A stretch of 64,000 nucleotides of DNA from Naegleria gruberi (Eukaryota), in the NCBI GenBank assembly GCA_000004985.1, contig GG738872.1, one strand, 5' to 3'. Positions within the stretch are counted from its first letter, which is position 1. The number at the start of each line of letters is the position of its first letter. This document shows, piece after piece, positions 10,239 to 61,820 of the stretch. The position numbers were made by a program, and so were the translations under genes. The notes below the pieces were generated by a model, which was not told the origin of the DNA, did not search any database, and saw nothing but the letters and a program-made list of their open reading frames with translations.

Positions 10239-10547
10239 TGTTACTAAGCTCTCTCTCCATATTTGAATTGCCAGCTTGTAGTATTAAGCGGAGAGAATCT
10301 CCCGTTTAGAATAAGAAACGGCCTGAATCCCGTTCATCCCGTTGCCCGTCTCACCGTTTATTTGTATCAACTCATACTGCTACATATTTCATATTGCATT
10401 GATTCAAATCCAATTTCAGAACAAAAACGAATGTATTTGATAGAATTTGTAAAGAGTTCTTGTTATTTTGGGGTTAGTCTTTGATTCCTCTGTATTCAAA
10501 ATGCACCATTGAGAGAAAACGGAAGCTTGTGTAATAAAAGGTTCATT

Positions 10548-28400: not shown

Positions 28401-29058
28401 TCAAGATACAGGTGTAGGAATTGAGAAGGAAGAAATCCCAAAGATTTTCAGAATTTACAGAAGACTGCACAGAAAGCAGCATGAAGTTTCTGGAAGTGGC
28501 ATAGGTCTTGCATTGTCTAAGCTTTTGTCAGACATATTGGGATGTACAATTAGAGTTGATTCTGAAAAGAATATAGGTACCACTTTCACAGTCATTGTCC
28601 CTCACCGATTGAATCCTAATGTACCGGAAACAGATCAAGAGCAACAGTTGCAAGAAGTGAAGAAACCTTCCCAAGAAATACCAATAGAGGAATTATTAAA
28701 AGATAAGAGAGCACTAGTCGTAGATGATAATGAGCTTATTAGAAAGCTTGTGAAGAATATGCTCAAAATGTGTAAATGTGAAGAAGCAGAAAATGGTCTA
28801 GAAGCTTTAAAGAAGTGTGAAGAACATGAATTTGATTTTATCATTTTAGATATTATCATGCCTCTAATTGATGGTTTTGAGGCAGCCAAAATTTTGAGAA
28901 ACGAACGTAAAGTCAAGACTCCAATTCTTGCATTGACAGGAAATTCACTGCAGGAAGAAATTGATGCCCTTCTTAAAATTGGTGTCAATAAGGTAATGAT
29001 CAAACCGATCAAAAGATTAGAACTATTCTCTGAATTGAGAGATGTACTAACTGAATAA
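25495..29058 (+). CDS. Hybrid sensor histidine kinase, 1,187 aa. It has an N-terminal low-complexity region (poly-N, His9), a GAF-like domain, a PAS-like domain, HisKA, HATPase_c and a C-terminal receiver domain.
   Basis: - Start codon: ATG at 25495.
- HisKA H-box: FIAFLSHELRNPIQ.
- N-box: LQQIILNIMSNSCKYT.
- G-boxes: IQDTGVGIEKEE ... GSGIGLALSKLL.
- Receiver domain: ALVVDDNELIRKLVKNMLK...FDFIILDIIMPLIDGFEA...ILALTGNSLQEEIDALLKIGVNKVMIKP. Confidence 0.85.
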   Translation: MVGTRTKKELLESSMQNLSSFIAEAVQREESTNTSLIQNMVQPTTRTSSLPTSPLSTTSNNNQLASNSTIPSSSSSAHVSFNTPDTIENICKNQSSSNRFNNNNLIINTSMMAMMNNEYNNQPSTSTPTSLKVRTISPLHDSPPPSSSNFSNNNNMEMITASSRGSYSRRQSPYDPFAQQLSLSQYTLQSSKSVNTSVNNNNNNMNNNNNNSIRDENEHHHHHHHHHDPSKWERKLLEITRVAFVSMLGSKNKRLSEWTLMNQISESLTDITSSQFCIILKAVNPPSQQQESNYNTNSPTHSPSPTTNNPPDVSNDVHLQVIGIYGIETEAAKLFVAPYRHKVPTSGPHSIFAHCYNRQQIIINNLSSTTNLPPGHLPISNSICVPICYGKECIGVVLLSNRFSGYREDMEKSLVAWAQSLGQMLKMYAVLFENETGQSFFDTSNINMPPVTVNPYGSKFRREYGDSPISCMPGRLPHPFDFNANHIRRASISNIQISKPAAYLGKLGKSKSSGNVFTVNDRVSRNSSFSSVCNDNDSESGECKKSLRIDVSNDVDGMDQDERRVPNRNFSASPCSSVSSVSDSHGEEYQDPISLFEEIENEMLKSAELSLALFKAVQDSILILDQNLNITTMNPSAKKFFGVSTNQSPNTSIPYMGNGSQIISVRDLIPDNSTQHLNWSEVCKPNGVSWYRGKALAKCRNNNNFDNNRTASGLLMASHSPSTTVTNYVELLSNTPLSPNTSAGTISPTGVEDHSMNRKQDSSQDFSRLVPIAISVTSFFFKEEIYFSVTVTDESSKEDMKDKMKFIAFLSHELRNPIQVIVSGVQCLVDIFKDNEDSDDMDNGKSIIKSISSSSDFISHIINDMIDLTKLESGHMKVIESSFNIREKVEQIVEMLKIYQVDKNIDISYQIDDAVPQNLYSDATKLQQIILNIMSNSCKYTKSGSVRLVCSYENLTEDNKPKKNIIFKIQDTGVGIEKEEIPKIFRIYRRLHRKQHEVSGSGIGLALSKLLSDILGCTIRVDSEKNIGTTFTVIVPHRLNPNVPETDQEQQLQEVKKPSQEIPIEELLKDKRALVVDDNELIRKLVKNMLKMCKCEEAENGLEALKKCEEHEFDFIILDIIMPLIDGFEAAKILRNERKVKTPILALTGNSLQEEIDALLKIGVNKVMIKPIKRLELFSELRDVLTE

Positions 29059-29219: not shown

Positions 29220-29339
29220 GGCTACGGCCATATCACGATGAATGCACCTCATCCCGTCCGATTTGAGAAGTTAAGCATCGTCGAGCCACATCAGTACTGA
29301 GGTTGGAGACAACTTGGGAACCTGTGGTGCTGTAGTCTT
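29220..29339 (+). rRNA. 5S ribosomal RNA (solitary copy)
   Basis: - Sequence: GGCTACGGCCATATCACGATGAATGCACCTCATCCCGTCCGATTTGAGAAGTTAAGCATCG...GGTTGGAGACAACTTGGGAACCTGTGGTGCTGTAGTCTT.
- It matches the 5S consensus blocks: CTACGGCCATACCAC, CCCGTCCGATCTG, AAGTTAAGC and GGGAGACC...GGGAA...GGTGCTGTAGGCTT.
- Helix I pairs 5' GGCTACGGC with 3' GCTGTAGTC.
- Length is about 120 nt. Confidence 0.85.
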
Positions 29340-40451: not shown

Positions 40452-41533
40452 AATAAAAGATATATATTTTCCAAATAATTCTTAAATCAATTATTCCTCT
40501 TATTGTTTTAATAAAAAGAAGAAGGAATGATGTAAAAAGTATTGCAATATTAACTAGCTAATGGGTATTTCTGGTATACCTCGATCAGCAACGATATATT
40601 GACGACCTATATTCAAATTAATGGTGCGCTGCAGCCTAAAACAATGGAGCAGAGACGGGGACTTGAAATTGTTGAGTAACATCCATCGTAGAATAATTCC
40701 GTTCACGATCAAATTATTTGCAAAATTCTTACGATTATGGTGCTACCATTTTTTTAAAAATATTAATAAAAATAATTATCTAGAAGATATTCAACACAAA
40801 GATTCGTCAACTAATTTACTTCAAGAAATTAGAATATCTTTTAAAAAATCATCTTTTTGACATCATGGTTGACAATAATACCATCATTAAATAAGCGCCT
40901 ATAATAATTGTTTTGGCGCAAATTCCTAATAAGGTCGCTTTGTTTTTGTACAATTCAACAAAAAGAGTCTTATTTTTGTCTTCAACAAAGCACAACATCA
41001 AAGCAAGCTTAACCAAGAGATTCACAAGAACTAATGGAGGCTCTTTGAAAAATAAATCAAAAAAAAACATCAATTTGGTTTTTGCTTGAGACACAACGGT
41101 TCAGAGTTTTATTTAGCCAAATTCCTATCTATCAATAATCTAGAAAATCGATCTGATTATTTTTCGGAATTGTCTTTTACTAGTGATTAGTAATAATAGA
41201 AAGTCTTAAGCTAAAAGCTCCGAAGAGTAAGTAGAGTCATATTTAATGTTTCTGACATTTGGTTCTGTATGAATACAATCTTGATGGTGCACTATGCTAC
41301 TTTTGTGATACTACTGTTTTAAATAACAAATCTGATCATCATTGTTGTATACAAATATATTTGTATTCAATTTAATAATACTGTGGATCACAACTTTTTG
41401 TATTGGACGGATTACTATTCCAATTTTATACAATCACCTTTTATTAATCTACCAACAACACTTCTTACAACAATCACTGTGTATTCTTATACTCATCAAC
41501 ACTCGAAAAAACCAAAACAACAACAACAAAACG

Positions 41534-44500
41534 ATGCAACCAATAGAAAATATGTTCTCTGGTCTCCTAGATTCGAGTAACAAACAAAACGAGGACTCCT
41601 CCAATGAAGTCACTTCAGTGGACAGTCCCTCAAAATCTAAAAAAGTGTCTGGTATTAGACGTGCTGCTTCAATTCAAGTCGGATTGAGTGATTTCGAATT
41701 GAGTGGTACTAATGTGCCTAATCCAGAATCTATTTCTTTAACACATTTGAGTAAATATGCTATCACTCTGGCTGGTATGCACGAAGTAGTAGAAGAAAAG
41801 AAGGAATTTGTCAAGCTTATCAAGAGATTAGACGAAACAGCCAGTATTATTACTCAAGCACACGATATTATTTATGAGGCAATTATGCAAAATCGTCGTA
41901 TTACTAGTAGTGATGAATGGTTGGTCGATAATTTTTGGATGATCAAGGAACAAATCCACATGACAAAAAAACACTTGCCACTAGGATATGAAAAGGAAAT
42001 GCCAAAGTTGAATAATACAAAATGTGCAGGTTATCCACGTATTTATGGTATTATTTGGGAATTGATTAACTTGGTAAATGGTCAAGTAACAGAAGAGAAT
42101 ATTTTCCAATTTGTCAAATCTTATCAATCTGTCAAACCATTGACAATTGGTGAATGTTGGGGTATTGGTGTTATGCTTCGTTTAGGTCTTTTAGAAAATA
42201 TTAGACGTGTTGCTGATGGTATTATTAGCAGAAGACAAGATTGTAACCTGGCTGATGCTTGGGCAGATCGTTTATTAACTAGTGCTGAAAAGAGTAGTCG
42301 TGATGTTGTTCAAATTCTGTATCAATTATCACAAAGTGAACCTATTATTACAAATGCTTTCGTCTTACAAATTAGTCAACGTTTACAAGGTTCTGATCCT
42401 GTTCTTTCAATTGTAAATACATGGTTAGAACAACAATTGAGTATTAAGGGTATTGATATCGATCAAATTTTCAGAATGCAAAAGCAAGCTAACTCTTCTA
42501 ATCAAGTTACAATGTCATATTCTATTAACTCTTTGAGATTAATTAACAATTTTAATTGGAAAGAGTTTGTTGAAAAATTGAGTCATATGGATGTTATTCT
42601 TCGTAAGGATCCTTCTGGTATTTATTCATATCAAAATTTCCATACCAGAGATAGATGTAGACACGCTATTGAAAGAATTGCAAAGAGATTCAAGATTGAT
42701 GAAAAGCAAGTTGCCAACAAGGCACTTTCCCTAGCAAAGGAAAATCATGAAGTTTTACAGTCATGTGTTTTAGGATCACCAAGAAGAACAAGGTCTGGTA
42801 GTGATGCTGAACCTCCAAGCTCTCCTGGATCCTCTCCTACTGCTCTCTCACCTCGTAGTGCTAGTAATGTTATTAGGAATATGAATCCAGATCAAATGTA
42901 TGACATGAAACTTATTCGTAGAAAAGCTTGTATTACCTATTGGTTGCTTGAAGATGAAGGTATTAAGGAATTGCATAGAGCTTTAGGTTTTAGAATGAGT
43001 CGTTTACCATTTTCATTTGATTTAAGATTCCCAAGCTTTATTACTTCAATTATTTTCTGGACTTGCTTATTTGCTATTGCTTACATTTTCATGACAAAAC
43101 ATTCTTACCAAACACAATTTGATAGATATCTTCCATTTAGTGGAGTGGAAAGTTTGAAATTATATTTTGTTTATGAAAAGTATCTTGCCTTGGTTTTATT
43201 GTATATATCAGTTTTATTTGTAGGAAGTCAACTTGCTGTTAGTTTGACTAACATGACTTTTGTTAGACTCAAATATCCAGCATCGTTGCCATCTATGGAT
43301 TTCAGTACAACAGGTATTCCTGATGAACACAGATCTATTGTTGTAGTACCAACAATGATAACAAGTTCAGATGGTATTAATGAATTATTGTCAGATTTAC
43401 AAGGTAGATATCTTATTAACAGGGACAAGAATATTGTGTTTGGTTTAATTACTGATTTTGGAGATTCAAAGACTGAAACTACTGAAAAAGATGATGCTCT
43501 CGTCAAGCAAGTTGTTGATGGTATCAATGAATTGAACAAAATGTACACAAGAACTCCTGAAGAACAAAGATACTCCAAGACAACTTTCTTCCTCTTCCAC
43601 AGAAAGAGATTGTACAATCCAGTTGAAAAAGTTTTCATGGGTTGGGAACGTAAGAGAGGTAAATTGGCTGAATTCAATACATTTATTTTACATGGTGAAA
43701 AGGGAAGTTTCAGTCATATTATTGGTGATACTACCAATTTGAATACTGTCAAACACGTCATTACATTGGATACTGATACCATGTTACCTTCAGATGCTGC
43801 TCGTGGTTTGGTTGAAATTGCTGCTCACGTTTTGAACGAACCTGTTATTGATAATCAAACTAAACGTGTTACTCATGGTTATGGTTTGCTTCAACCTCGT
43901 GTTAGTAATGGTTTTACTGGTTCTACTAAGTCACTCTATGCTTATATGCACAGTATGGATTCTGGTTTGGATCCTTATACTAGAGAAGTTAGTGATGTTT
44001 ATCAAGATACTTTTGGTGAAGGTTCATTCATTGGAAAGGGTTTGTACAATGTTGAAACTTTTGAAACTGTTTGTGGCGAAAAGTTCCCAGAAAATAGAAT
44101 TCTCAGTCACGATTTGATTGAAGGTTGTTTTGTCAGATCTGGATTGACTTCTGGTATTGAAGTTATTGAAGATTATCCATCAAGTTATGGTGTTGAAGCC
44201 TCTAGAAGACATCGTTGGATTAGAGGTGACTGGCAAATTGCTAGTTATGCTTTCAGTCCTTTCATCTTGACTGCCAAGGGTTATGAAAAGAATACCTTGT
44301 CTGCATTGCATAGATGGAAGATTTTCGACAATTTGAGAAGATCTCTCGTTCCAGCTGCTATGACTTATTTGATTATGAGTACTGCTTTGTTCACTTCCTA
44401 TCACTCCAAGTTGCCATTCGTTGCTGTTCTCGCTGTTCTTTCAATTTATCTCATTCCAACAACAATCAATACTATTATTGATGTTGTCAAGAAACCTGAA

Positions 44501-47500
44501 GATGCTACTTGGCAAGAGCACTTTAAGAGAATCCGTTTCAATCTCTTACGTACTTTTGTTGATATTTATGTTGAATTGGTATTCACTCCTTTCGAAGCTT
44601 ACAACAATATTGATGCTATTATTCGTTGTTTATTCAGATTGTATGTTAGTGGTAAAGGTCTTTTGGAATGGACAACCTTCCAATCTGCTAGTAGTATTTA
44701 CAAGACTAATTTGTTCTTGGCCATGTCTAGATTGTTGTGGTTCCCAGTCTTGTTGACTACCTCTATTATTGCTTACATTGTCATTCAACATAATACTGCT
44801 GTTGCTTATAATGAATGGCAAACGTATGGTTTCACTAGAAGACCATTCATGTTGGCCAGTAATCTTATTACCATTATTCTCATGTTTGCCAGTTGGATTC
44901 TTTCACCATTCATTGCCTACTACTTGAGTAAGCCATTGAAGAAGAATCTCTTTGAGAGAGAAAATTTCAATGACCTCACCAAGGATGACAAGGTCTTCTT
45001 GCATGTCTTGTCTCGTAGAACTTGGAGATTCTTTGAAACATTTGTCAGAAAGGAAGATAACTATCTCCCACTCGATAACTACCAAGATTTCCCAAAGCCA
45101 ATGCTTGCTCGTAGAACCAGTCCAACTAATATTGGTCTTGCTTTGCTTGCCAATTTGGGTGGTCACGACTTTGGTTATATTACTAATAATGAATGTGTCA
45201 CTCGTATTCACAATACTTTGTCTACACTTTCCAACATGGATCGTTATAAGGGACATTTCTACAATTGGTATGATACTCAAGATTTAAGACCATTGTGGCC
45301 TAAATACATCAGTGCTGTTGACAGTGGTAACTTGGTTGGTCACTTACTCATTTTGAAGGCAGGTTTGGTTGAATTGAGCGACAACGTTCCAATTATTAAT
45401 ACTGATACTTATGTTTCTGGTTTGAGAGACAACTTGTACAGTATGCAATTCATCCTCAAAGAAGTTGAAAAGACAACCGATACTGACGAAGAAGAACTCG
45501 TTTACTTTGACATTAATGAAATCAAGCCAATGATTGAAGACTTGCACACCAAGTTGGATAACAAACCAACTAAGATTTCCAAATTGATTCGTTGGTACAC
45601 TGAAATTAAGGCCAGTTCCAAGAAATTGGAAGAAAGCTTGAATGAATCCCTCAACAAGCTTATTGAAGCCAGTAAGGATGACAGTCAAGCAGATATTGAA
45701 TGGCTCGCTGAAGACATTGAAGAAAGGTGTGAAAAGCAACTCTTATTCTATTCTCAATCATTCGTTCATCTAGTCTCTGAAATTGCTCAAGAATTGAATG
45801 AATTGGTTCCATTCTCCAAGCATTGGGATTTGCCTGAGGAATTAGTTTCACCTCCAAGCTCATTGGCTGGACTTTTAGAAAATGAAGCTATCACTCAATT
45901 CACTCAACAATTCAACAAGATGAATATTGAACAATTGACTCTCAGAGGTATTCTTGGTGTCAAGGAACAATTAGGTATTTCAAAGGTTAGTAAGGTATTG
46001 GGAAGCCTTAAAGTTACTGGTTCAACCTCTAATTTATCATCTGGACCAAAGGGAGTTGAAGCTTTGAAACGTTGGGTTACAGAATTGGAAGAATCCATTG
46101 TCAATGCTGAAAGTGAAGCCAAGAAGCGTTGTAACAAGTTGAAACGTCTCATCAATACTACTGATGATTTGATCAAGCAAGACTTTAGCTTCTTGTATAA
46201 TCCATCTCGTGATTTGCTTGTCATTGGTTACAATGTTGAATCTGACAGAATTGATCAAGCTCACTACGACATGTTCTGTTCTGAAGCTCGTCTTATCAGT
46301 TACGTTGGTATTGCTTTGGGCTATTTCCCAGTTAAACATTGGTTCTCCATGAGTCGTCTTATTACCACTCAAGGTACTCACCCAGCATTATTGTCATGGT
46401 CTGGTTCTGCCTTTGAATATTTGTTGCCACTCAACGTTATGCCAAATATTCCAGGTACTCTCCTCGATTCTACCTACCATGCTGTCGTCTTACGTCAAAT
46501 TGAATATGGTAAACAAAAGAATATTCCTTGGGGTATGAGTGAAAGTGCTTACAATTTGATGGATGCTAATCTTGTTTATCAATATGGTCCATTTGGTGTT
46601 CCAGGTTTGGGTTTGAAGAGAGGTTTGTCTAATGACTTGGTTGTTGCACCATATGCTACTGTTATGAGTTTGATGGTTCTTCCAAAACAAGCCACCAAGA
46701 ACTTGAGACGTTTGAACGAAATGAATTTCTTGGGTTGTTATGGTATGATTGAATCTGTTGACTTTACTCCTCACAGATTGAGAGGTAATATTGATGCTCA
46801 ACCAATCAAATCTTTCTTTGCTCACCACCAAGGTATGTCATTCCTCAGTTTGTTGTACTGTTTGAAGGCACAACCAATGCAAAGAAGATTTATGGCTGTT
46901 CCAGAATTTGCTGCCAACGTTTTGTTGCTTCAAGAAAAGATTCCAACAGTTCCACACATTTCCAATCCAAATGAAAAGGAAACAGAACGTTGGAAGAATG
47001 TTGGCTACAATCTCCCTTGTGCTAACAGACAATTCCAAGGTTTACACACCTATCCAGAAGTTCACATGCTCAGTAATCACGCCTTGCACGTAATGTTAAC
47101 TGTTAACGGTGGTGGTTACATTAAATATGAAGATATGAGTGTTACCAGATGGAGAGAAGATGCCACTCTTGATGGTTATGGTGTTTTGATTTATTTCAGA
47201 GATATGCAAGATAAGACTGATGTCTGGTCTGCTACATCCACACCAATCAAGGCCTCTAATGATAGTAATTATTCAGTCACTTTCAGTCAAGCTCGTGCTG
47301 AATTTAGAAGAAAACACAAGGGAATGACCACAGAAACAATTGTTACAGTTTCTCCATTGGATAATGTTGAAGTTAGACGTGTTAAATTTACCAATAATAC
47401 TAACAAGACAAAGGAAATTGAATTTACCAGTTATGGTGAAGTTGTTTTGAATCAAGGACGTGCTGATGCTGCTCACAGAGCCTTCTCTAACTTGTTTGTC

Positions 47501-50500
47501 GGTACTGAAATTCTTCATCAACAAAATGCCATCCTCTTCTACAGAAAGCAAAGAGATCCAAAAGACAAGAAGGTCTTTGGTTTCCACATTTTATTCGTTC
47601 ACGAACCAAAGAATATTATTGCCGAATCAACCTTTGAAACTGATAGAAGTAGTTTCTTAGGTAGAGGTTATACCATGCAAAGACCAAAGGCTCTCTCTGA
47701 CGACCTTGGTCCACTCTCAAATACTTCTGGTTTCCCTCTTGATCCAATCTTTGCTATTCGTCAATGTTTGAGAATCAAGCCAGGTAGAACTGTTCACATT
47801 GATTATATTACTGGTGTTGCTTTCTCCAAGGAAGACGCTATCAGTGTTATTAAGAAGTATCAAAGCAAGAAGACAACTAACCACGTTGTTAACTTTGCTT
47901 GGGTTGCCTCTGAAAAGCTTTGCTTCCGTTTGGGTATTACTGAAATTGAAGCTCAATTGTTCTCAAAGTTGGCTGGTTGTATCCTCTATTCTAATCCACG
48001 TTATCGTGCTCCACCTGGTCTTATTACCAAGAATAAGAATAATCAATCTGGTTTGTGGAAGTTTGGTATTTCTGGTGATATTCCACTCATTTTGGTTCGT
48101 GTTTGCGATCTTGAACAATCATTCTTTATGCAACAAGTTCTCCAAGCTCACGCTTATTGTAGATGCAAGGGTGTTAAATTTGATTTGGTTATTTGGAACG
48201 ATGAAACAACTCACTATCGTGACTTGCTCAATCAAACTCTCCATCATATCATGTCCCACATTCCAGGTTCAACTGATTTATTGCATCAACCTGGTGGTAT
48301 TCACCCTGTTAGAGGTGACAGTTTGACCTCATTTGAAACTGTCTTGTTGTACTCTGTTGCTCGTGTCGTTTTATCTGACAATGGTGGTAGCTTAACAGAT
48401 CAAATTAACAGAACTTCCAAGAAGGGATACGTTGTTCCTCCATTCCGTGTTATTACTCAACCTCGTGTCATTAAGGATACAATGAATACAGTTCCAAAGT
48501 TGCATGAAAGAGACCTCATTTTGAGAAACGATGTTGGTGGTTTCGATGCTAAGCGTAAGGAATATGTCATGATGTTGGGCAAGAATCATGTTACTCCAAA
48601 GCCATGGTGTAACGTTTTGGCTAACGATAGATTTGGTTCAGTCATCTCTGAAAAGGGTAGTGCTTACTCATTCTTCACTAATGCTCACGAATACAGATTG
48701 ACTCCATTTAACAATGATGCTGTCCTCGATAACTCTGGTGAAGCATTCTATATTAGAGATGAAAGCACTGGTCAATACTGGTCACCAATGCCTCAACCTG
48801 TACCAATTGATAGAGATGATTACTATTACATTTGTAGACATGGTATTGGTTACAGTACTTGGGAACATTTCCATGATGGTATTCATACTGAAACTACCAC
48901 ATTTGTTCCACAAAATGAACCTGTCAAGATTATCTTGATCCGTGTAACTAACAATAGTGGTTTTGATAGAAACTTGACTGTTACTGGTTTTGTTGAATGG
49001 GTTTTGGGTGAATTGAGAGAATTGAATGCTCCACACATTATTACTGATGTTGAAAGAACTGACAATAGTACAGCTGTTATTGCTAGAAATAACTTCCATA
49101 TTCAATTGTCTCACTTTGTTGGTTTTATGTCCGTTATTGGTCACAAGGAAGGTACAATTACTGGTGATAGAAATGAATTTATTGGAAGTAATGGTACTCT
49201 TGATAGACCTCAAGCTATGAAACAACAATACCTCTCAGGAAATGTTGGTGCTGCTTTCGATCCATGTGCTGCTATTCAAGTTCCAATCACTGTCGAAGAT
49301 GGTAAAGTTGTTGAAGTTGCATTCATGATTGGTGCCAACTATTCTAGAGATGGTGCTAAGGATGTCATTTCTCGTATTCGTAGTAACCTCATTGTTAGAC
49401 AATTATTGAACAGTGTTAAGGCCTTCTGGCACTATAATCTCAACACTATTCAAGTTGAAACTCCAAGCCCTGATTTGGATGTTTTGGCCAACGGTTGGTT
49501 GTTGTACCAAGTTTTGTCTTCTCGTATTTGGGGTAGATCTGGTTTCTATCAATCCAGTGGTGCTTTTGGTTTCAGAGATCAATTGCAAGATACTATGGCT
49601 GTTGCCTCTGTAATGCCTCAAATTTTGAGACAACAAATTCTCACCAATTGTGAACATCAATTTGAAAAAGGTGACGTATGCCATTGGTGGCACGACATTA
49701 CTAACAGTGGTGTCAGAACTACATTCAGTGACGACTACTTGTGGCTTCCACTCGCTGTTGCTCACTATTTGGAAATTACTGAAGATTACAAATTACTCCA
49801 CGAAAGAATTAGATTCTGTAAGCTCAGAGAAATTGAACCAGGTGAAGAATCAGTCTATGACAAGCTTGAATACACTGAAGAAACTGAAAGTATCTATGAA
49901 CATTGTAAGCGTGCATTGAAGTATGGTTTCAAATATGGTGCTCATGGACTTCCTCTTATGGGATGTGGTGACTGGAACGATGGTATGAATCTCGTTGGTA
50001 TTCATGGTAAAGGTGAAAGTGTTTGGTTGGCATTCTTCTTGTTCCACGTTTTGGAGAACTTTGAAAAGAATATCTTGGAAACTGAAATTAAGGATGATGA
50101 ATTCTTAGAAGAATGTAGAAAGAATCGTGAATACATCAAGGCCAACATTGAAGGACAAGCTTGGGATGGAGAATGGTATCGTAGAGCCTACTTTGATAGT
50201 GGTGAGCCTCTTGGTTCTAAGGAAAATTCTGAATGCCAAATTGACAGTTTGCCACAATCATGGGCTATTATCAGTGGTTGTGTTGATAAGAAGAGAGCTA
50301 AAATGGCCCTTACAAATGCCTATCAAAGGTTGGTCAGACATGACTTGAAGCTTATTCAATTGTTCGATCCACCACTCCAACATCAAGAACCATCTGCTGG
50401 TTACATTCAAGGTTATGCTCCTGGTGTCAGAGAAAATGGTGGTCAATATACCCATGCTTCTATTTGGTTTGCTTGGGCTTATTCCATTCTCAAGGATAAC

Positions 50501-50929
50501 AAGAAGGTTTGGGACTTGTTCGACATTTTGAATCCAATCAACCATGCCAAGACTAAGGAAGATGTTTGGAAATACAAGGTTGAACCATACGTTGTCACTG
50601 CTGATATTTACACATTGATGGATCACGAAGGTGAAGGTGGTTGGAGTTGGTTCACTGGTTCTGGTGGTTGGTTCTATAGATTAATCTTGGAAAGACTCAT
50701 TGGTATCAAGAAGCAAGGTAACTCTCTCAAATTCGATCCATGTCCAAAGGAAGATTGGAAGAAGTATAACATTAATTATCAACATGGCAAGACTGCTTAC
50801 CAAATTCAAGTTACAAGATCTGAAGAAAATGTCATGATTGTTGATGGTGTTAAGAGAGCTGATCCAACTCGTATTCCACTTGTTGATGACGGAAAGACTC
50901 ACAAGGTTGAAATTTATTACAAGTATTAA
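41534..50929 (+). CDS. Cyclic beta-1,2-glucan synthase-like giant enzyme (Cgs/NdvB/ChvB homolog), 3,131 aa and intronless. It has an N-terminal multi-TM GT84-type glycosyltransferase region, a central domain, and a C-terminal GH94 (cellobiose-phosphorylase-like) domain.
   Basis: - Start: the first ATG, at 41534 (MQPIENMF...). The ORF-track start at 41342 is a TTG.
- GT region motifs: FLFHRKRLYNPVEKVFMGWERKRGKLAEFN, DTDTMLPSDAARGLV (DxD), GLLQPRV, RRHRWIRGDWQIA.
- Flanking TM clusters are present.
- C-terminal GH94-type motifs: WGRSGFYQSSGAFGFRDQLQDTM ... GGWSWFTGSGGWFYRLILERLIGIK.
- Size and order match bacterial Cgs proteins of about 2,800-2,900 aa. Confidence 0.7.
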   Translation: MQPIENMFSGLLDSSNKQNEDSSNEVTSVDSPSKSKKVSGIRRAASIQVGLSDFELSGTNVPNPESISLTHLSKYAITLAGMHEVVEEKKEFVKLIKRLDETASIITQAHDIIYEAIMQNRRITSSDEWLVDNFWMIKEQIHMTKKHLPLGYEKEMPKLNNTKCAGYPRIYGIIWELINLVNGQVTEENIFQFVKSYQSVKPLTIGECWGIGVMLRLGLLENIRRVADGIISRRQDCNLADAWADRLLTSAEKSSRDVVQILYQLSQSEPIITNAFVLQISQRLQGSDPVLSIVNTWLEQQLSIKGIDIDQIFRMQKQANSSNQVTMSYSINSLRLINNFNWKEFVEKLSHMDVILRKDPSGIYSYQNFHTRDRCRHAIERIAKRFKIDEKQVANKALSLAKENHEVLQSCVLGSPRRTRSGSDAEPPSSPGSSPTALSPRSASNVIRNMNPDQMYDMKLIRRKACITYWLLEDEGIKELHRALGFRMSRLPFSFDLRFPSFITSIIFWTCLFAIAYIFMTKHSYQTQFDRYLPFSGVESLKLYFVYEKYLALVLLYISVLFVGSQLAVSLTNMTFVRLKYPASLPSMDFSTTGIPDEHRSIVVVPTMITSSDGINELLSDLQGRYLINRDKNIVFGLITDFGDSKTETTEKDDALVKQVVDGINELNKMYTRTPEEQRYSKTTFFLFHRKRLYNPVEKVFMGWERKRGKLAEFNTFILHGEKGSFSHIIGDTTNLNTVKHVITLDTDTMLPSDAARGLVEIAAHVLNEPVIDNQTKRVTHGYGLLQPRVSNGFTGSTKSLYAYMHSMDSGLDPYTREVSDVYQDTFGEGSFIGKGLYNVETFETVCGEKFPENRILSHDLIEGCFVRSGLTSGIEVIEDYPSSYGVEASRRHRWIRGDWQIASYAFSPFILTAKGYEKNTLSALHRWKIFDNLRRSLVPAAMTYLIMSTALFTSYHSKLPFVAVLAVLSIYLIPTTINTIIDVVKKPEDATWQEHFKRIRFNLLRTFVDIYVELVFTPFEAYNNIDAIIRCLFRLYVSGKGLLEWTTFQSASSIYKTNLFLAMSRLLWFPVLLTTSIIAYIVIQHNTAVAYNEWQTYGFTRRPFMLASNLITIILMFASWILSPFIAYYLSKPLKKNLFERENFNDLTKDDKVFLHVLSRRTWRFFETFVRKEDNYLPLDNYQDFPKPMLARRTSPTNIGLALLANLGGHDFGYITNNECVTRIHNTLSTLSNMDRYKGHFYNWYDTQDLRPLWPKYISAVDSGNLVGHLLILKAGLVELSDNVPIINTDTYVSGLRDNLYSMQFILKEVEKTTDTDEEELVYFDINEIKPMIEDLHTKLDNKPTKISKLIRWYTEIKASSKKLEESLNESLNKLIEASKDDSQADIEWLAEDIEERCEKQLLFYSQSFVHLVSEIAQELNELVPFSKHWDLPEELVSPPSSLAGLLENEAITQFTQQFNKMNIEQLTLRGILGVKEQLGISKVSKVLGSLKVTGSTSNLSSGPKGVEALKRWVTELEESIVNAESEAKKRCNKLKRLINTTDDLIKQDFSFLYNPSRDLLVIGYNVESDRIDQAHYDMFCSEARLISYVGIALGYFPVKHWFSMSRLITTQGTHPALLSWSGSAFEYLLPLNVMPNIPGTLLDSTYHAVVLRQIEYGKQKNIPWGMSESAYNLMDANLVYQYGPFGVPGLGLKRGLSNDLVVAPYATVMSLMVLPKQATKNLRRLNEMNFLGCYGMIESVDFTPHRLRGNIDAQPIKSFFAHHQGMSFLSLLYCLKAQPMQRRFMAVPEFAANVLLLQEKIPTVPHISNPNEKETERWKNVGYNLPCANRQFQGLHTYPEVHMLSNHALHVMLTVNGGGYIKYEDMSVTRWREDATLDGYGVLIYFRDMQDKTDVWSATSTPIKASNDSNYSVTFSQARAEFRRKHKGMTTETIVTVSPLDNVEVRRVKFTNNTNKTKEIEFTSYGEVVLNQGRADAAHRAFSNLFVGTEILHQQNAILFYRKQRDPKDKKVFGFHILFVHEPKNIIAESTFETDRSSFLGRGYTMQRPKALSDDLGPLSNTSGFPLDPIFAIRQCLRIKPGRTVHIDYITGVAFSKEDAISVIKKYQSKKTTNHVVNFAWVASEKLCFRLGITEIEAQLFSKLAGCILYSNPRYRAPPGLITKNKNNQSGLWKFGISGDIPLILVRVCDLEQSFFMQQVLQAHAYCRCKGVKFDLVIWNDETTHYRDLLNQTLHHIMSHIPGSTDLLHQPGGIHPVRGDSLTSFETVLLYSVARVVLSDNGGSLTDQINRTSKKGYVVPPFRVITQPRVIKDTMNTVPKLHERDLILRNDVGGFDAKRKEYVMMLGKNHVTPKPWCNVLANDRFGSVISEKGSAYSFFTNAHEYRLTPFNNDAVLDNSGEAFYIRDESTGQYWSPMPQPVPIDRDDYYYICRHGIGYSTWEHFHDGIHTETTTFVPQNEPVKIILIRVTNNSGFDRNLTVTGFVEWVLGELRELNAPHIITDVERTDNSTAVIARNNFHIQLSHFVGFMSVIGHKEGTITGDRNEFIGSNGTLDRPQAMKQQYLSGNVGAAFDPCAAIQVPITVEDGKVVEVAFMIGANYSRDGAKDVISRIRSNLIVRQLLNSVKAFWHYNLNTIQVETPSPDLDVLANGWLLYQVLSSRIWGRSGFYQSSGAFGFRDQLQDTMAVASVMPQILRQQILTNCEHQFEKGDVCHWWHDITNSGVRTTFSDDYLWLPLAVAHYLEITEDYKLLHERIRFCKLREIEPGEESVYDKLEYTEETESIYEHCKRALKYGFKYGAHGLPLMGCGDWNDGMNLVGIHGKGESVWLAFFLFHVLENFEKNILETEIKDDEFLEECRKNREYIKANIEGQAWDGEWYRRAYFDSGEPLGSKENSECQIDSLPQSWAIISGCVDKKRAKMALTNAYQRLVRHDLKLIQLFDPPLQHQEPSAGYIQGYAPGVRENGGQYTHASIWFAWAYSILKDNKKVWDLFDILNPINHAKTKEDVWKYKVEPYVVTADIYTLMDHEGEGGWSWFTGSGGWFYRLILERLIGIKKQGNSLKFDPCPKEDWKKYNINYQHGKTAYQIQVTRSEENVMIVDGVKRADPTRIPLVDDGKTHKVEIYYKY

Positions 50930-51084
50930 TTAATAAAGTTAAAATAAATTAATTTTAAATCTCTACCAACTTATTAGTTATCCTGATGTCTTTAATTTTA
51001 ACATTTACAGACATAGATGAATCAGATAAGGAATACCACAAGTTAGAATTAGCAAAATAGATTTTATACAATAATATTAATAAA

Positions 51085-52003
51085 TTAATCATCAGCAATA
51101 TAAACTTTCTTTCTGGAAAATATTTTGATGGCTTCGTCAATTTCTTGTAATTTCCTTTCCATATTATTTTTCTTTTGTTGTAAGAATTGAGTATCACACA
51201 ACATTGGAAGCTTATTGATGGCACCCTGCACTTCTCTCTTACTCTTCTCGAGTTCAGTAAGAGTTTCAAGTCTATCTTCTTCAGAAACTAATCTCATTCC
51301 AGGAGGACATTCATCCTTCTTCTTTTGTTCTTCCTTTTCTTTTTGTTCCTTTTCATGTTTGATTGCTTTTCTATCTTTAATGCTATGAATATTTAGCAAA
51401 GAAATTTCAAGATTTAAAAACTTACTATTGAGGCACTCTTCCAAAATCTTCTGGCTTTTCAAAGTCTTCCTTTACAGCTTTCGATGCCACTTTGGCTTCT
51501 CCCTTTTTAGCGATTGATTTCAAATCCTTGGTTGCGTTTTGTACAATATAATTTTTAGAGTCTCTATGTGTGACTGGTTCATTAAATTCCTCCTTCTTAG
51601 GAATTGGTGGTTTCTTCTCGTTGGCTAACATTTCCTTCTCCTTCTTTACTTCAAATGCAATTTCCTTCTTTTTAATATTTTGTTCGGTTATTCTCTCCCT
51701 ATTTGCACCTGATTTCAAATAATTTTCATTCACTGGATTCTCGGGAGTGTAATCTTGTGCTTTAATATCCTTCACCTTTGATTCAACCTCCTTGTATTTT
51801 TGTAGTTTAAATTCTTCCTTCTTGATAGCATCCTTTTCCTTCTTTAATTTATTTTCGTGTTCCTTTTCTTTAAGCGCTTTAAGATTTTGATGCATATGAT
51901 TTTTAGGTATGATACCTTGCTTTTCCTGTACTCCTCTGTATCCGTTCACAGGATGAAGAAAATTTGAAATTTGACTTGAATCCGAATGATGGTGTTTGAT
52001 CAT
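51085..52003 (-). CDS. Enkurin-domain protein (ciliary/flagellar), about 291 aa, 2 exons: 51426..52003 and 51088..51382 plus the stop codon
   Basis: - Start codon: ATG at 52003.
- Intron 51383..51425 (43 nt): donor CAATA|GTAAGT, acceptor attcatag|C.
- C-terminal domain: CPPGMRLVSEEDRLETLTELEKSKREVQGAINKLPMLCDTQFLQQKKNNMERKLQEIDEAIKIFSRK.
- This matches the enkurin consensus: PxGhxxhSeeERxxxLeeLxxSkxxlxxELxKLPxxxDTxxxxxRKxxLExKLxEIEeAIKxFS. Confidence 0.7.
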
Positions 52004-58896: not shown

Positions 58897-59619
58897 TTAT
58901 TGAGAAGCAGATGATGAATTTGATGATGAATTATTAGCAGCAACTTCAGAAGAAAGTAATTGATCGAACCAATAATCATTGACAACTCTCTTTGATTTGG
59001 TCAACAAGGTTTGCAATTCTTTCAAGCTCTCTACTTGCTCGTCAATTAATCTTTGAAGGTACCCAGTTAATGCAAAGTCCTTTTGTTGTTCAGCTCTGTG
59101 ATACAAGTGTGAAATTTTATCATAAACCATTCTTTCAGTTTCGATTGCCAATTCGAACCCTTTAGTAGCCATATGTAATTGACCAGTACTATCACTTGAA
59201 TCAAAAACGTCTGCAAACTCAGGTGGTGCATTGATCACAGTGAATTTAACCTTTCCTCCTCTAGAATTTTGATAATTAATCAAAGATTGAGCATGTGTTC
59301 TTTCTTCACTTGCCTGGTTGTGGAAATAACTTGCAACACCTGGCAAGGCAATAGTTGGCTGAGCAAAATAAGTTGCCAATGCTGTGTAAAAGTAACTAGC
59401 ATTCAATTCATGATTAATTTGTTCATTGACAAGTTTTTCACATTCAACAGTGTAATTGTAACGAATCTTGTTGAGAGTTGGATTAGAATTGTCGAGTTGG
59501 AAGGATTGGGAGTGGAAAGAACGAAGGGATGTTGTTGATGAGAAAAAGTTGGTTGTATGGGTGTTTCTGATTGACTTCGTGGTCAATTGGGTGAGAATTC
59601 GTCTAGTGTTGTTGATCAT
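58897..59619 (-). CDS. Ferritin with an about 50-aa N-terminal presequence (organelle-targeting-like), 240 aa
   Basis: - Start codon: ATG at 59619.
- Core: NYTVECEKLVNEQINHELNASYFYTALATYF...LPGVASYFHNQASEERTHAQSLINYQNSRGGKV.
- It matches the ferritin ferroxidase-centre region: E..VN..IN.EL.ASY.Y....YF......L.G...FF...A.EE..HA..L...QN.RGG.
- The N-terminus MINNTRRILTQLTTKSIRNTHTTNFFSSTTSLRSF is rich in Arg/Ser/Thr and lacks acidic residues. Confidence 0.8.
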   Translation of the reverse strand: MINNTRRILTQLTTKSIRNTHTTNFFSSTTSLRSFHSQSFQLDNSNPTLNKIRYNYTVECEKLVNEQINHELNASYFYTALATYFAQPTIALPGVASYFHNQASEERTHAQSLINYQNSRGGKVKFTVINAPPEFADVFDSSDSTGQLHMATKGFELAIETERMVYDKISHLYHRAEQQKDFALTGYLQRLIDEQVESLKELQTLLTKSKRVVNDYWFDQLLSSEVAANNSSSNSSSASQ

Positions 59620-59927: not shown

Positions 59928-61820
59928 TTACACTCTATTTTCTGGAACTACATTGTGATGACGAATGAGCAATTTGGTAGGTGAAGAAACAATGGCAATA
60001 TTATTGGGTGATCTTGGAGCAGAGACAGAATCTCTTGTCTTGTAAAATTTCTCAGTTTCCAAAGTCTCCAACAATGGGATAAACACAAAGTAAACAATAA
60101 TTAAAAAGCAAACTAATACATCGCAACAAATAAAATTCACAACGTTGAAAAAGCGAACCAGAACATCATAAAGTAATGAGGTTGGCTCTACATTAATGGA
60201 TTGAATGATAGTAAAGAGAACCTCACCACTTTTCCCGAATATTCCAAAAACTGTGAAAAAGCATGTAATGATGATTTGACATGCCAGAACTTTCCTCTTT
60301 AACCTCTTGTTAATTAACTTTCTATAGAGCTTGACACTGTAAAAGTTAAAGGTAATGAAAAATGAAAAATAGAAGGAAATGTAAATAAGGAGAGAACTCA
60401 ATGGAAATGCACAATAACCTCCATATCGTGTCAAGTGACTATAAATAAACTCTAATTTGTGATGTTGAATATTATAGCTTAACACTACATCAACAATAAT
60501 TGAAGCTATTTGAAGAATAGTAAAGAATGAAGTTAGAATGAGTGTACGTATGAAAATGTTGGTGTTTTCCTTTCTGACATTGATGGTAAGATGGGTTCTT
60601 TGGAATTCTTGGACGGACGGTGCATTATTCTTGATAAAGCTTTGCCCATGGTCTCTAGATCTTGGTGATATTTGGATTGGTTCCTCCTTATTACTGCTTG
60701 AATCACTTCGAGGAGATTTGTGAGAGTGTGATTCGGATTTTCTTCTAGAATGATTTCTATCAGAGGTAGATGGTGGCCTTTCTACAATATTTTTACTCGC
60801 AGAGCTAGATCTAAGTAGGGGTTTTACAGACCCATCATCTATTGTAACACCAGTCAAGTGATTATTCTCAGGCAAGTCAAGTTTAGATTCCTCATCAACG
60901 ACAACATCCACCACAGAGGTAGACCTAGCAAGTTTTGGTTTCTTATCTTTTAACTCTTCATCTTCTGCTGCAGTTGTTGTGGTAGCAGCAGCTATTGAAA
61001 CCTTGCTTTTAGGTACTGTTTTTGTAAAGTGAGTATCAGTTTTCTTACTAGGAGTGAGTGTATGACTAAGGATGAATAGCACTGAACATGTAGCAAGTAC
61101 AAATCCGAAAAATTCGAAAGGTTGTATTATTCTACATGCAATGTTATTAGAAATACTGGAAGAGTCATAACTGGTATTTGGATTCTTAATTTCAGTCCAC
61201 CAAGGTTGTTGAAACAGTAATACTAGAATACCAAAGAAGGAATGCACAATAGCACCCAGAAGAGCAATAACTCTCGAAGGCCACAATGATAAGAAATAAT
61301 TCTTTCTATTTCTTATCAGTACAATTAGAGTAATCAGGTAAAAGAGCAAGGTGAGTGTACAAATACTAACTCCCACATATTCCAGCACTGAATCAACTGT
61401 TTGCATACTCTCCGATGCTTCCTTATCATCTGTTATATTGAAAGGTATTGATAAATCCTGTTTTGAAGTTGGAAAATAATTGAAAATGTTAGAAGTTGTT
61501 GTAGTTATTAAATTATCATGTTGATGTGAAGATGAAGAAGAAGATGAAAATATCGAAAATACTGATTCTAATGATGATTGATCTTGTTGTATTAAATTAT
61601 TTAAATTAGCAGCAATATGGTTGTATGAAGAAGAACCCGACGAGAATGAACTCTCTAATTCCTTCTGCCTATAATCACTCTTTGTTATCCACGGTGATAC
61701 TGATGATGATGATGATAAGAAGTCCTTCAGAGATGATACTGCCCCCACCACTGAAGATGATGCCGATAGAAAATCACCAACGGCTTGCCTCAGCAGCAGC
61801 AACATTGTACTATCAGCCAT
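59928..61820 (-). CDS. Putative seven-transmembrane receptor-like protein with a long Ser-rich third cytosolic loop, about 630 aa
   Basis: The first ATG is at 61820 (MADSTMLLLL); the ORF-track start at 61853 is a TTG. Seven hydrophobic helices were counted by eye. An about 190-aa S/T/R-rich loop sits between helices 3 and 4. Confidence 0.45.
   Translation of the reverse strand: MADSTMLLLLRQAVGDFLSASSSVVGAVSSLKDFLSSSSSVSPWITKSDYRQKELESSFSSGSSSYNHIAANLNNLIQQDQSSLESVFSIFSSSSSSSHQHDNLITTTTSNIFNYFPTSKQDLSIPFNITDDKEASESMQTVDSVLEYVGVSICTLTLLFYLITLIVLIRNRKNYFLSLWPSRVIALLGAIVHSFFGILVLLFQQPWWTEIKNPNTSYDSSSISNNIACRIIQPFEFFGFVLATCSVLFILSHTLTPSKKTDTHFTKTVPKSKVSIAAATTTTAAEDEELKDKKPKLARSTSVVDVVVDEESKLDLPENNHLTGVTIDDGSVKPLLRSSSASKNIVERPPSTSDRNHSRRKSESHSHKSPRSDSSSNKEEPIQISPRSRDHGQSFIKNNAPSVQEFQRTHLTINVRKENTNIFIRTLILTSFFTILQIASIIVDVVLSYNIQHHKLEFIYSHLTRYGGYCAFPLSSLLIYISFYFSFFITFNFYSVKLYRKLINKRLKRKVLACQIIITCFFTVFGIFGKSGEVLFTIIQSINVEPTSLLYDVLVRFFNVVNFICCDVLVCFLIIVYFVFIPLLETLETEKFYKTRDSVSAPRSPNNIAIVSSPTKLLIRHHNVVPENRV

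What the first reader, a model, noticed from the sequence alone, without database searches (positions are those of the whole stretch)
41534..50929. Eukaryotic, intronless 3,131-aa homolog of bacterial cyclic beta-1,2-glucan synthase (GT84 + GH94)
**Evidence for the assignment.** Diagnostic Cgs/NdvB motifs:
- WERKRGKL;
- DTDTMLP (a DxD motif);
- QPRV;
- HRWIRGDWQ, flanked by TM clusters;
- a cellobiose-phosphorylase-type C-terminal domain (GFRDQLQD…GGWSWFTGSGGWFYR).

**Why it is unusual.**
- Such enzymes are characteristic of alpha-proteobacteria (Brucella, Agrobacterium, Rhizobium), where the glucan is an osmoprotectant and host-interaction factor.
- Many neighbouring genes are interrupted by 43-115 nt introns (the kinase, gp210-like, FNT and RhoGEF genes among them), yet this 9.4 kb gene has none.
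- That is consistent with a relatively recent horizontal acquisition that has since been ameliorated to host codon usage.
Basis: partly seen in the sequence, partly recalled or inferred. Interest (0 to 1): 0.8.

Follow-up and report, generated by a model that had tools for sequence, protein, structure and literature searches.

The report
Bacterial-type cyclic glucan synthase in Naegleria
The amoeba Naegleria gruberi carries an intact, strongly conserved copy of the giant bacterial enzyme that makes ring-shaped beta-1,2-glucans; it came from bacteria long ago, its relatives (including the brain-eating N. fowleri) share it, and I found no paper describing it.

Summary
Window 41534-50929 (+) is one uninterrupted 3,131-codon ORF, identical to N. 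gruberi 'predicted protein' NAEGRDRAFT_58230. [quoted passage not shown]

- **Residues:** all 17 functional residues I checked are conserved, including the priming tyrosine.
- **Context:** it is eukaryotic. There is a telomere at the window start, the neighbours contain introns, the downstream neighbour matches N. fowleri, and GC3 is host-like.
- **Selection:** dN/dS against N. fowleri is 0.07.

The "recent transfer from alpha-proteobacteria" reading does not hold.

- The gene predates the split of the three Naegleria species compared.
- It sits in a clade of at least 8 putatively eukaryotic lineages with 100% bootstrap support. The clade includes a Diphylleia transcript and a polyadenylated cDNA, and its members share a 23-27 aa insertion.
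- No bacterial homolog exceeds about 47% identity. The one alpha-proteobacterial sequence in the tree is among the most distant (33%). The sister group is unresolved.

Best reading: an anciently acquired, functional Cgs that makes cytosolic cyclic beta-1,2-glucan. The product and its role are untested. I found no literature on it. It is a new member of a known kind, of moderate to high interest.

The parts
41534..50929 (+). [quoted passage not shown]
   Evidence: The ORF is uninterrupted. It matches XP_002676328.1 exactly. It hits A. tumefaciens Cgs 8RF0 at E=0. It is 86% identical over 100% of its length to N. fowleri FDP41_002565.
41534..42973 (+). N-terminal scaffold domain (residues ~1-480). 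It contains a Naegleria-only Ser/Pro-rich insert at residues 405-448.
   Evidence: Residues 121-403 align with Atu Cgs 65-340 (chain numbering of 8RF9). The insert is 44-51 aa in Naegleria and 8-18 aa in the other clade members; under 10% of the bacterial sequences have residues in these columns. N. gruberi and N. fowleri are 89% identical here.
43022..43216 (+). Transmembrane helices 1-2 (residues ~497-561).
   Evidence: Kyte-Doolittle segments lie at 497-515 and 543-561, in the same position as in the bacterial homolog P0027.
43256..44233 (+). GT84 glycosyltransferase domain (residues ~575-900). It carries D641/D644, the DxD motif D746/D748, the priming tyrosine Y815, the catalytic base D860 and the RW motif R894-W895.
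   Evidence: The alignment to Atu Cgs matches D527, D624/D626, Y694, D739 and R773 (residue roles from PMC10901819). All are invariant in 8 clade members and 114 bacterial sequences.
44306..44908 (+). Transmembrane helices 3-6 (residues ~925-1125).
   Evidence: Hydropathy segments lie at 960-978, 1061-1079 and 1105-1123. A weaker one sits near 925-950, below my threshold. The region aligns with the Atu TM region.
44951..46963 (+). GH189 cyclization (transglycosylase) domain (residues ~1140-1810). It carries S1260/D1263, the acid/base E1584, E1628, the nucleophile E1670 and H1764/H1765.
   Evidence: It hits the T. italicus cyclization domain 8WY1 at E 6.5e-115 and Atu Cgs at 1.3e-114. Pfam PF10091 covers residues 1581-1774. 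Residue roles come from PMC10834661 and PMC10901819. All are invariant in the alignment.
45347..46213 (+). Expanded helical insert within the cyclization domain (residues ~1272-1560). It includes a clade-specific 23-27 aa insertion at residues 1374-1396.
   Evidence: The insert is 250-308 aa in the eukaryote-type clade, against a median of 188 aa in 114 bacterial sequences. All 8 clade members have the 1374-1396 insertion; under 10% of the bacterial sequences have residues in these columns. This is the least conserved part between N. gruberi and N. fowleri, at 65%. In Atu it corresponds to the dimer-forming 4-helix motif (PMC10901819).
46964..50926 (+). C-terminal GH94 glucan phosphorylase region (residues ~1811-3131). 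The two Asp residues D2682 and D2816 correspond to the predicted active-site residues mutated in the inactive Agrobacterium GP construct.
   Evidence: Pfam finds the GH94 supersandwich (two stretches, best 2355-2600) and the catalytic domain at 2631-3057. The alignment to Atu Cgs matches D2393 and D2528. Both are invariant. N. gruberi and N. fowleri are 91% identical here.
40452..41533 (.). AT-rich upstream intergenic region and 5' leader of the gene.
   Evidence: Sequence read directly. No tRNA or Rfam family was found here.
50930..51087 (+). Short 3' flank with AATAAA-type motifs just after the stop codon. It abuts the convergent enkurin-like gene.
   Evidence: Sequence read directly. That these motifs act as polyadenylation signals is inference only.
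51088..52003 (-). Downstream enkurin-like gene, also downstream of the N. fowleri ortholog, with a 43-nt spliceosomal intron (51383-51425). It anchors the locus as eukaryotic and ancestral to both species.
   Evidence: tblastn against the N. fowleri locus L001 gives 66-71% identity. The intron has GTAAGT...AG boundaries.

Best explanation
This is a real nuclear gene of Naegleria gruberi. [quoted passage not shown]

**Inferred mechanism (by homology, not shown here)**
1. The protein sits in a membrane through about six helices, with all catalytic domains facing the cytosol.
2. The GT84 domain glucosylates its own Tyr815 from UDP-glucose and extends a beta-1,2 chain.
3. The C-terminal GH94 phosphorylase trims the chain and so sets its length.
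4. The central GH189 domain (nucleophile E1670, acid/base E1584) releases a ring of roughly 17-25 glucoses by intramolecular transglycosylation.

**Origin.** A protist ancestor acquired the gene from a bacterium well before the Naegleria species diverged. The donor is unresolved and is probably not an alpha-proteobacterium. The gene has since been kept under strong purifying selection.

**Role in the amoeba (speculation).** The most likely use is as a cytosolic or exported osmolyte for life in dilute water. A role in the cyst or at the cell surface is the alternative.
For: **Shown here**
- The protein is collinear along its length with the solved A. tumefaciens Cgs (E=0) and with the T. italicus cyclization domain (E about 1e-113).
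- All three catalytic modules are present.
- Seventeen functional residues are invariant across 8 clade members and 114 bacterial sequences: D641, D644, D746, D748, Y815, D860, R894, W895, S1260, D1263, E1584, E1628, E1670, H1764, H1765, D2682 and D2816. Their roles are taken from PMC10901819 and PMC10834661.
- Of 426 columns invariant in the bacterial sequences, 342 are identical in all 8 clade members.
- The TM segments have the same layout as in bacteria.
- Against N. fowleri, dN/dS is 0.073, with 87% amino-acid identity. Neighbouring genes are only 46-71% identical.
- The context is eukaryotic: a telomere repeat at 1-463, neighbours with introns, and the same downstream neighbour as in N. 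fowleri.
- GC3 and codon usage match the host.
- The eukaryote-type clade has 100% bootstrap support in two NJ trees (100/100 and 200/200). Its members share an insertion.
- One relative (P0003, locus L004) ends in an A24 tail followed by a sequence I recognise from memory as the reverse complement of the SMART IIA cDNA primer. This indicates a polyadenylated mRNA.

**Inferred**
- The product, the membrane, the topology and the physiological role.
Against: - There is no biochemical evidence for beta-1,2-glucans in any Naegleria.
- I have no expression data for the N. gruberi gene itself.
- Bacteria need a dedicated ABC exporter (Cgt) to move the glucan out of the cytoplasm. I did not look for one in Naegleria, and none lies in this window.
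- The source organisms of P0002-P0005, P0128 and P0130 are unknown. The Diphylleia transcript could be culture contamination. The breadth of the "eukaryotic" clade is therefore only partly established.
- The trees are neighbour-joining on Kimura distances. The sister group is unresolved, and the direction of transfer rests on distribution, not on a rooted tree.
- NCBIfam returned no hit.
Confidence: 0.8

Rival explanations
1. Recent horizontal transfer from an alpha-proteobacterium (Brucella, Agrobacterium or Rhizobium type), since ameliorated.
For: - The gene has no introns while many neighbours do.
- The experimentally studied Cgs enzymes discussed in the papers I read are mostly from alpha-proteobacteria (PMC10901819).
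Against: - Orthologs in N. fowleri and N. lovaniensis are 86-89% identical, dS is about 1.3, and the downstream neighbour is shared with N. fowleri.
- Further eukaryote-type relatives are 52-75% identical.
- The best bacterial identity is 44-47%. The Hyphomicrobiales sequence is at 32-33%, and Atu Cgs scores far below beta/gamma-proteobacterial and planctomycete hits.
- Composition cannot be told apart from the neighbours.
Confidence: 0.04
2. Bacterial contamination or a chimeric assembly, and not a Naegleria gene at all.
For: The family is overwhelmingly bacterial.
Against: - The gene lies inside a contig that starts with a telomere repeat. Both flanks hold eukaryotic genes with introns: NUP210, an EGF-kinase, RhoGEF and enkurin.
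- The same gene, with the same downstream neighbour, is in an independent N. fowleri assembly. An ortholog is also annotated in N. lovaniensis.
- GC3 of 0.30 matches the host.
Confidence: 0.01
3. It is a true Cgs homolog, but its product or use in the amoeba differs. For example, it might make linear or protein-anchored beta-1,2-glucan for the cyst wall or cell surface, or act mainly as a phosphorylase or transglycosylase on ingested bacterial glucans.
For: - The helical insert in the cyclization domain is expanded, at 250-308 aa against a median of 188.
- Naegleria has an extra Ser/Pro-rich linker.
- No Cgt exporter was identified.
- Naegleria feeds on bacteria (general knowledge).
Against: - Every residue needed for priming, elongation, length control and cyclization is invariant.
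- All domains are under purifying selection, including GT84 and the priming tyrosine. A purely degradative role would not explain that.
Confidence: 0.12
4. The gene is ancestrally eukaryotic, either present in the last eukaryotic common ancestor or inherited from the mitochondrial endosymbiont, and was lost in most lineages.
For: The clade may span two supergroups, Discoba (Naegleria) and CRuMs (the Diphylleia transcript).
Against: - Only a handful of eukaryote-type sequences turned up among billions of proteins.
- The clade attaches inside one part of the bacterial diversity and not next to alpha-proteobacteria.
- The Diphylleia sequence comes from a transcriptome and could be contamination.
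- This history would need very many independent losses.
Confidence: 0.05

Closest known systems
[quoted passage not shown]
   Same: - The order of modules is the same: NTD, TM1-2, GT84, TM3-6, cyclase, GH94.
- The alignment is collinear at E=0.
- All functional residues are conserved, including the autoglucosylated Tyr (Atu Y694 = Ng Y815), the DxD motif, the RW motif, the cyclase glutamates and the GH94 aspartates.
   Different: - The host is a eukaryote, and the membrane is not a bacterial inner membrane.
- The protein is about 300 aa longer.
- The helical insert in the cyclase domain is larger, and Naegleria has an extra Ser/Pro-rich linker.
- Its score against the Agrobacterium enzyme (1,624 bits) is well below its scores against the best bacterial homologs (2,437-2,540 bits).
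- No adjacent exporter gene.
Cyclization domain of Thermoanaerobacter italicus CGS (PDB 8WY1; founding member of GH189)
   Same: - E 6.5e-115.
- The nucleophile (Ti E1442 = Ng E1670), the acid/base (Ti E1356 = Ng E1584), E1400 and the His-His pair are all conserved.
   Different: The Naegleria domain has a longer helical insert between the two conserved halves.
GH94 glycoside phosphorylases (cellobiose and chitobiose phosphorylases, e.g. 3QDE, 1V7V)
   Same: The C-terminal ~800 aa match at E about 1e-79, and the RDQLQD and DWND motifs are conserved.
   Different: Those are stand-alone soluble enzymes. UniRef's automatic name for the Naegleria orthologs ("N,N'-diacetylchitobiose phosphorylase") describes only this domain and misleads about the whole protein.
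Uncharacterised bacterial Cgs homologs from Planctomycetota, beta/gamma-proteobacteria, Myxococcota, Bacteroidota and others
   Same: They are full-length and have the same architecture. They are the most similar bacterial sequences, at 43-47% identity.
   Different: None is close enough to name a donor. Under 10% of them have residues at the clade-specific 23-27 aa insertion.

Membership tests
[quoted passage not shown] | Full-length collinear similarity to an experimentally characterised Cgs. | tested here: met
   8RF0/8RF9 hit at E=0 (1,624 bits). Three collinear stretches cover residues 121-403, 563-1282 and 1546-3096.
[quoted passage not shown] | GT84 active site: UDP-coordinating Asp residues, DxD, the catalytic base Asp and the (Q/R)xxRW motif. 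| tested here: met
   D641, D746/D748, D860 and R894-W895 align with Atu D527, D624/D626, D739 and R773. All are invariant in 122 sequences (roles from PMC10901819).
[quoted passage not shown] | Autoglucosylated priming tyrosine on the IF1-homology loop. | tested here: met
   Y815 (GLDPYTREV) aligns with Atu Y694 (GIDPYVFTV) and is invariant in all sequences. The glucosylation itself cannot be tested here.
[quoted passage not shown] | Six transmembrane helices in a 2+2+2 arrangement around the GT domain. | tested here: inconclusive
   A crude hydropathy scan finds five clear segments (497-515, 543-561, 960-978, 1061-1079, 1105-1123) at the expected places. The sixth (~925-950) falls below my threshold. 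The layout matches bacterial homologs.
[quoted passage not shown] | GH189 cyclization domain with the nucleophile Glu, the acid/base Glu and the supporting Glu and His-His. | tested here: met
   E1670, E1584, E1628 and H1764/H1765 align with Ti E1442, E1356, E1400 and H1536/H1537. S1260/D1263 align with Atu S1101/D1104.
[quoted passage not shown] | C-terminal GH94 phosphorylase domain with its active-site Asp residues. | tested here: met
   Pfam PF06165 and PF17167 (E 1e-151 and 1e-106). D2682 and D2816 align with Atu D2393 and D2528.
[quoted passage not shown] | The product is a cyclic beta-1,2-glucan made from UDP-glucose. | not testable with these tools
   This needs biochemistry: MALDI-TOF or NMR of Naegleria extracts, or of the recombinant enzyme.
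[quoted passage not shown] | A partner ABC exporter (Cgt/ChvA/NdvA) that moves the glucan across the membrane. | not tested
   No ABC transporter turned up among the window ORFs I scanned or in the annotated N. fowleri flanks. I did not search the rest of the genome.
Bacterium-to-eukaryote horizontally transferred gene | The eukaryotic sequences form a small clade within a large, taxonomically broad bacterial family. | tested here: met
   - 2,806 50%-identity clusters at E<=1e-30.
- At least 599 bacterial species representatives.
- The eukaryote-type clade is recovered in 100/100 and 200/200 NJ bootstraps.
- The root and the sister group are unresolved.
Bacterium-to-eukaryote horizontally transferred gene | The gene is truly integrated in the eukaryotic genome and is not contamination. 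| tested here: met
   Telomere repeat, intron-containing eukaryotic neighbours, a shared downstream neighbour with N. fowleri, and host-like GC3 and RSCU.
Bacterium-to-eukaryote horizontally transferred gene | Recent acquisition, shown by a close bacterial donor or atypical composition. | tested here: not met
   The best bacterial identity is 44-47%. Composition is host-like. The gene is shared by three Naegleria species and by more distant eukaryote-type lineages.

The most novel reading that the evidence does not exclude
Naegleria, including the human pathogen N. fowleri, and a scattered set of other protists would be the first eukaryotes known to synthesise cyclic beta-1,2-glucans. These molecules are so far treated as bacterial. 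The amoebae would use them as an osmolyte for freshwater life or as a secreted or surface factor. In N. fowleri the enzyme would then be a bacterial-type drug target with no human counterpart, and its product might modulate host immunity as the Brucella glucan does.
Probability: 0.4. Interest if true: 0.8.

Novelty: new member of a known kind. Interest (0 to 1): 0.62.

Why it matters
[quoted passage not shown] PMC12102758 says so directly: these glucans are "produced by bacteria", and the SGL clan apart from GH162 is "distributed widely in bacteria". A fully intact, strongly constrained Cgs in a eukaryote predicts eukaryotic cyclic glucans, which is easy to test.

**For Naegleria.** The genus lives in dilute fresh water, and N. 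fowleri causes a nearly always fatal brain infection (general knowledge). The ortholog there is 86% identical. I am not aware of a human homolog of this enzyme, though I did not search for one. That would make it a plausible selective target.

**For host interaction.** Brucella cyclic glucan is an established immune modulator (titles and abstracts of PMC3499565 and PMC4077732).

**For evolution.** This is a clean case of a 9.4-kb multi-domain bacterial gene kept whole in protists for a long time. It may also have spread between eukaryotes.

Tried and rejected
- **NCBIfam scan of the whole protein:** no family at E<=0.01, so it gave nothing.
- **tRNA scan and Rfam scan:** nothing at the locus.
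- **Literature searches:**
  - Naegleria with GT84, GH94, cyclic glucan, NdvB or cellobiose phosphorylase returned nothing relevant.
  - The accessions NAEGRDRAFT_58230, FDP41_002565, XP_002676328, D2VHG4, EFC43584 and C9374_012379 returned nothing.
  - Naegleria with HGT, glucan and glycosyltransferase returned nothing relevant.
  - GT84 with protist terms returned nothing relevant.
  - The Naegleria pangenome paper does not mention glucan or CAZy.
- **Sample lookups:** searching SRR32315873, SRR29541317, SRR8654739 and 3300043818 to identify the source organisms of P0002-P0005 found nothing.
- **Flanking ORF on L002:** Pfam gave only a sub-threshold CCDC24 hit, which is a weak hint of eukaryotic origin.
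- **Naming a bacterial donor:** the sister group changes between bootstrap replicates. It was Tepidisphaerales in 29%, Planctomicrobium in 13% and an 18-taxon group in 42%. I name no donor.
- **Tree artefact:** in the second tree, the longest ORF taken from L068 (Luteimonas) was not the cgs gene (17% identity). This distorted the midpoint root but not the clade support.
- I first placed two residues one position off (F642, Q1766). I corrected them to D641 and H1764/H1765.
- **Not attempted:** structure prediction. The protein exceeds the size limit, and the sequence match to solved structures is already decisive.
Full report
**1. The observation**

Window 41342-50929 (+) is one open reading frame. 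From the first ATG at 41534 it encodes 3,131 residues without a stop. The translation is identical to the public N. gruberi protein XP_002676328.1 / NAEGRDRAFT_58230 / UniProt D2VHG4, annotated only as "predicted protein". The window therefore comes from Naegleria gruberi. It begins with about 75 copies of a CCCAAA telomere repeat.

**2. What the protein is**

- Pfam finds a Glycoamylase-type domain (PF10091, residues 1581-1774), two GH94 supersandwich stretches and the GH94 catalytic domain.
[quoted passage not shown] Three collinear stretches cover the N-terminal domain, the TM/GT84 region and everything from the cyclase to the C-terminus.
- The isolated cyclization domain of T. italicus CGS (8WY1, GH189) matches at E 6.5e-115 when the cyclase region alone is used as query.
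- The architecture is therefore NTD, TM1-2, GT84, TM3-6, GH189 cyclase, GH94 phosphorylase.

**3. Functional residues**

I took residue roles from the cryo-EM paper (PMC10901819) and from the cyclization-domain paper (PMC10834661). I mapped them through the PDB alignments.

| Module | N. gruberi residues | Reference residues |
|---|---|---|
| GT84 | D641, D746/D748, D860, R894-W895 | Atu D527, D624/D626, D739, R773 (RW motif) |
| Primer site | Y815 | Atu Y694 |
| Cyclase | S1260/D1263 | Atu S1101/D1104 |
| Cyclase | E1584, E1628, E1670, H1764/H1765 | Ti E1356 (acid/base), E1400, E1442 (nucleophile), H1536/H1537 |
| GH94 | D2682, D2816 | Atu D2393, D2528 |

- All of these are invariant in an alignment of 8 eukaryote-type and 114 bacterial sequences.
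- Of 426 columns invariant in the bacterial sequences, 342 are identical in all eight eukaryote-type sequences.
- Hydropathy segments fall where the bacterial TM helices lie.

Nothing in the sequence suggests loss of any of the four activities: priming, elongation, length control or cyclization.

**4. It is a eukaryotic gene, not contamination**

- The flanks carry typical eukaryotic genes: a NUP210-like gene, an EGF/NHL-kinase, RhoGEF, a formate/nitrite transporter, PGAP1 and an enkurin-like gene.
- Several of these are split by introns. The enkurin-like gene has a canonical 43-nt GTAAGT...AG intron. The FNT domain is divided between two ORFs.
- In N. fowleri the ortholog (FDP41_002565, 3,161 aa, also a single exon) has the same enkurin-like gene immediately downstream. 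That neighbour is 66-71% identical.
- The upstream neighbour in N. fowleri maps about 10 kb away on the other strand in N. gruberi, at 46% identity.
- GC3 of the gene is 0.304. The neighbouring ORFs range from 0.23 to 0.35, pooled 0.287. Its RSCU correlates with the neighbours at r=0.84, at the low end of their own range of 0.84-0.97.

**5. Selection**

N. gruberi and N. fowleri are 86.9% identical in protein and 80.1% in DNA. dN is 0.094, dS is 1.29 and dN/dS is 0.073. The gene is better conserved than its neighbours. Conservation is highest in the GH94 region (91%) and the NTD (89%). It is lowest in the helical insert of the cyclase (65%).

**6. Origin**

*Closest relatives.*
- N. fowleri and N. 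lovaniensis are the closest, at 86-89%.
- Next are four environmental or SRA-derived sequences, P0002-P0005, at 53-60%.
- A Diphylleia rotans transcript from EukProt is at 52%.
- The exhaustive representative search added P0128 (64% to P0002) and the fragment P0130 (75% to Naegleria).

*Evidence that these relatives are eukaryotic.*
- The contigs for P0002, P0003 and P0005 are barely longer than the gene, as transcripts would be.
- L004 (P0003) ends with the stop codon, about 20 nt, an A24 run, and then a sequence I recognise from memory as the reverse complement of the SMART IIA cDNA primer. I read that as a polyadenylated mRNA.

*Trees.*
- In two neighbour-joining analyses on about 2,820 well-occupied columns, the eukaryote-type sequences are monophyletic in 100/100 and 200/200 bootstraps.
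- They share a 23-27 aa insertion at residues 1374-1396. Under 10% of the bacterial sequences have residues in these columns.
- They also share a generally longer helical insert.

*Bacterial homologs.*
- They are very numerous: 2,806 50%-identity clusters at E<=1e-30, and at least 599 species representatives across more than ten phyla.
- None exceeds 44-47% identity to the Naegleria protein.
- The one alpha-proteobacterial representative is among the most distant, at 32-33%.
- The sister group is not resolved.

*Conclusion.* I conclude there was one old bacterium-to-protist transfer, possibly followed by spread between eukaryotes, and that the gene has been retained since. The absence of introns is real. 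It reflects the gene's origin and says nothing about a recent arrival.

**7. How it most likely works**

By homology the enzyme should work as the Agrobacterium one does.
1. It is anchored in a membrane with its catalytic domains in the cytosol.
2. It glucosylates its own Tyr815.
3. It elongates a beta-1,2 chain from UDP-glucose.
4. It trims the chain by phosphorolysis.
5. It releases a ring through the GH189 domain.

All of this is inference. So is the role in the cell. An osmolyte function would fit a freshwater amoeba, but a surface, cyst or prey-related role cannot be excluded. I identified no exporter.

**8. Novelty**

The sequence has been public since 2010, but only as "predicted protein". 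UniRef's automatic name for the orthologs describes only the GH94 domain. I found no paper in the searchable library that links Naegleria, or any eukaryote, with Cgs, GT84 or GH189. A recent paper in the field describes these glucans and enzymes as bacterial. I cannot check CAZy listings with these tools.

My verdict is a new, eukaryotic member of a known enzyme family. The prediction is clear and testable, and it has some medical relevance through N. fowleri.

Noticed in passing
window 1-463: About 75 copies of ACCCAA (the C-rich strand of a TTTGGG/GGGTTT-type telomere repeat). Variants such as CCTAAAAA appear from about 360. The cgs gene therefore lies only about 41 kb from a chromosome end. 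In N. fowleri the ortholog lies about 15 kb from the end of its contig.
   Followed up: partly
window 1169-5508 and 10573-10807: Two runs of N, 4,340 and 235 bases long. They are either gaps or masked sequence. The first lies just inside the telomere. The second interrupts a CitMHS-type transporter ORF.
   Followed up: no
window 29220-29338 (+): A full-length 5S rRNA gene (Rfam RF00001, 105 bits). It sits between the hybrid histidine kinase gene and the EGF-kinase gene.
   Followed up: no
window 25495-29058 (+): An intronless 1,187-aa hybrid histidine kinase (GAF, PAS, HisKA, HATPase_c and receiver domains). This is another bacterial-looking signalling architecture in the same subtelomeric stretch.
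   Followed up: no
window 6538-9303 (-): A 921-aa ORF next to the gap and telomere. Its only Pfam hit is a C-terminal chromodomain. It may be a remnant of a chromodomain-bearing mobile element or a chromatin protein.
   Followed up: no
window 60042-61457 (-) versus L001 6245-8275: The gene immediately upstream of cgs in N. fowleri (676 aa, no Pfam hit) is found about 10 kb downstream on the opposite strand in N. gruberi, at only 46% identity. This points to a local rearrangement around an otherwise conserved cgs-enkurin pair.
   Followed up: partly
L044 (JBAXWY010000031.1, 'Methanothrix sp.' MAG) 3001-11643: A full-length Cgs homolog (40% identity to the query) sits on a contig binned as an archaeon. 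It is either mis-binned or a rare archaeal copy.
   Followed up: no
L004 9443-9527: The JGI contig carrying P0003 ends with a poly(A) run followed by what I recognise from memory as the reverse complement of the SMART IIA cDNA primer. This 'metagenome' record would then be an untrimmed full-length cDNA.
   Followed up: yes
window 58897-59619 (-): A ferritin-like ORF (PF00210, E 9.5e-28) lies downstream of a PGAP1-domain gene. It is ordinary, and I record it only to complete the map of the window.
   Followed up: no
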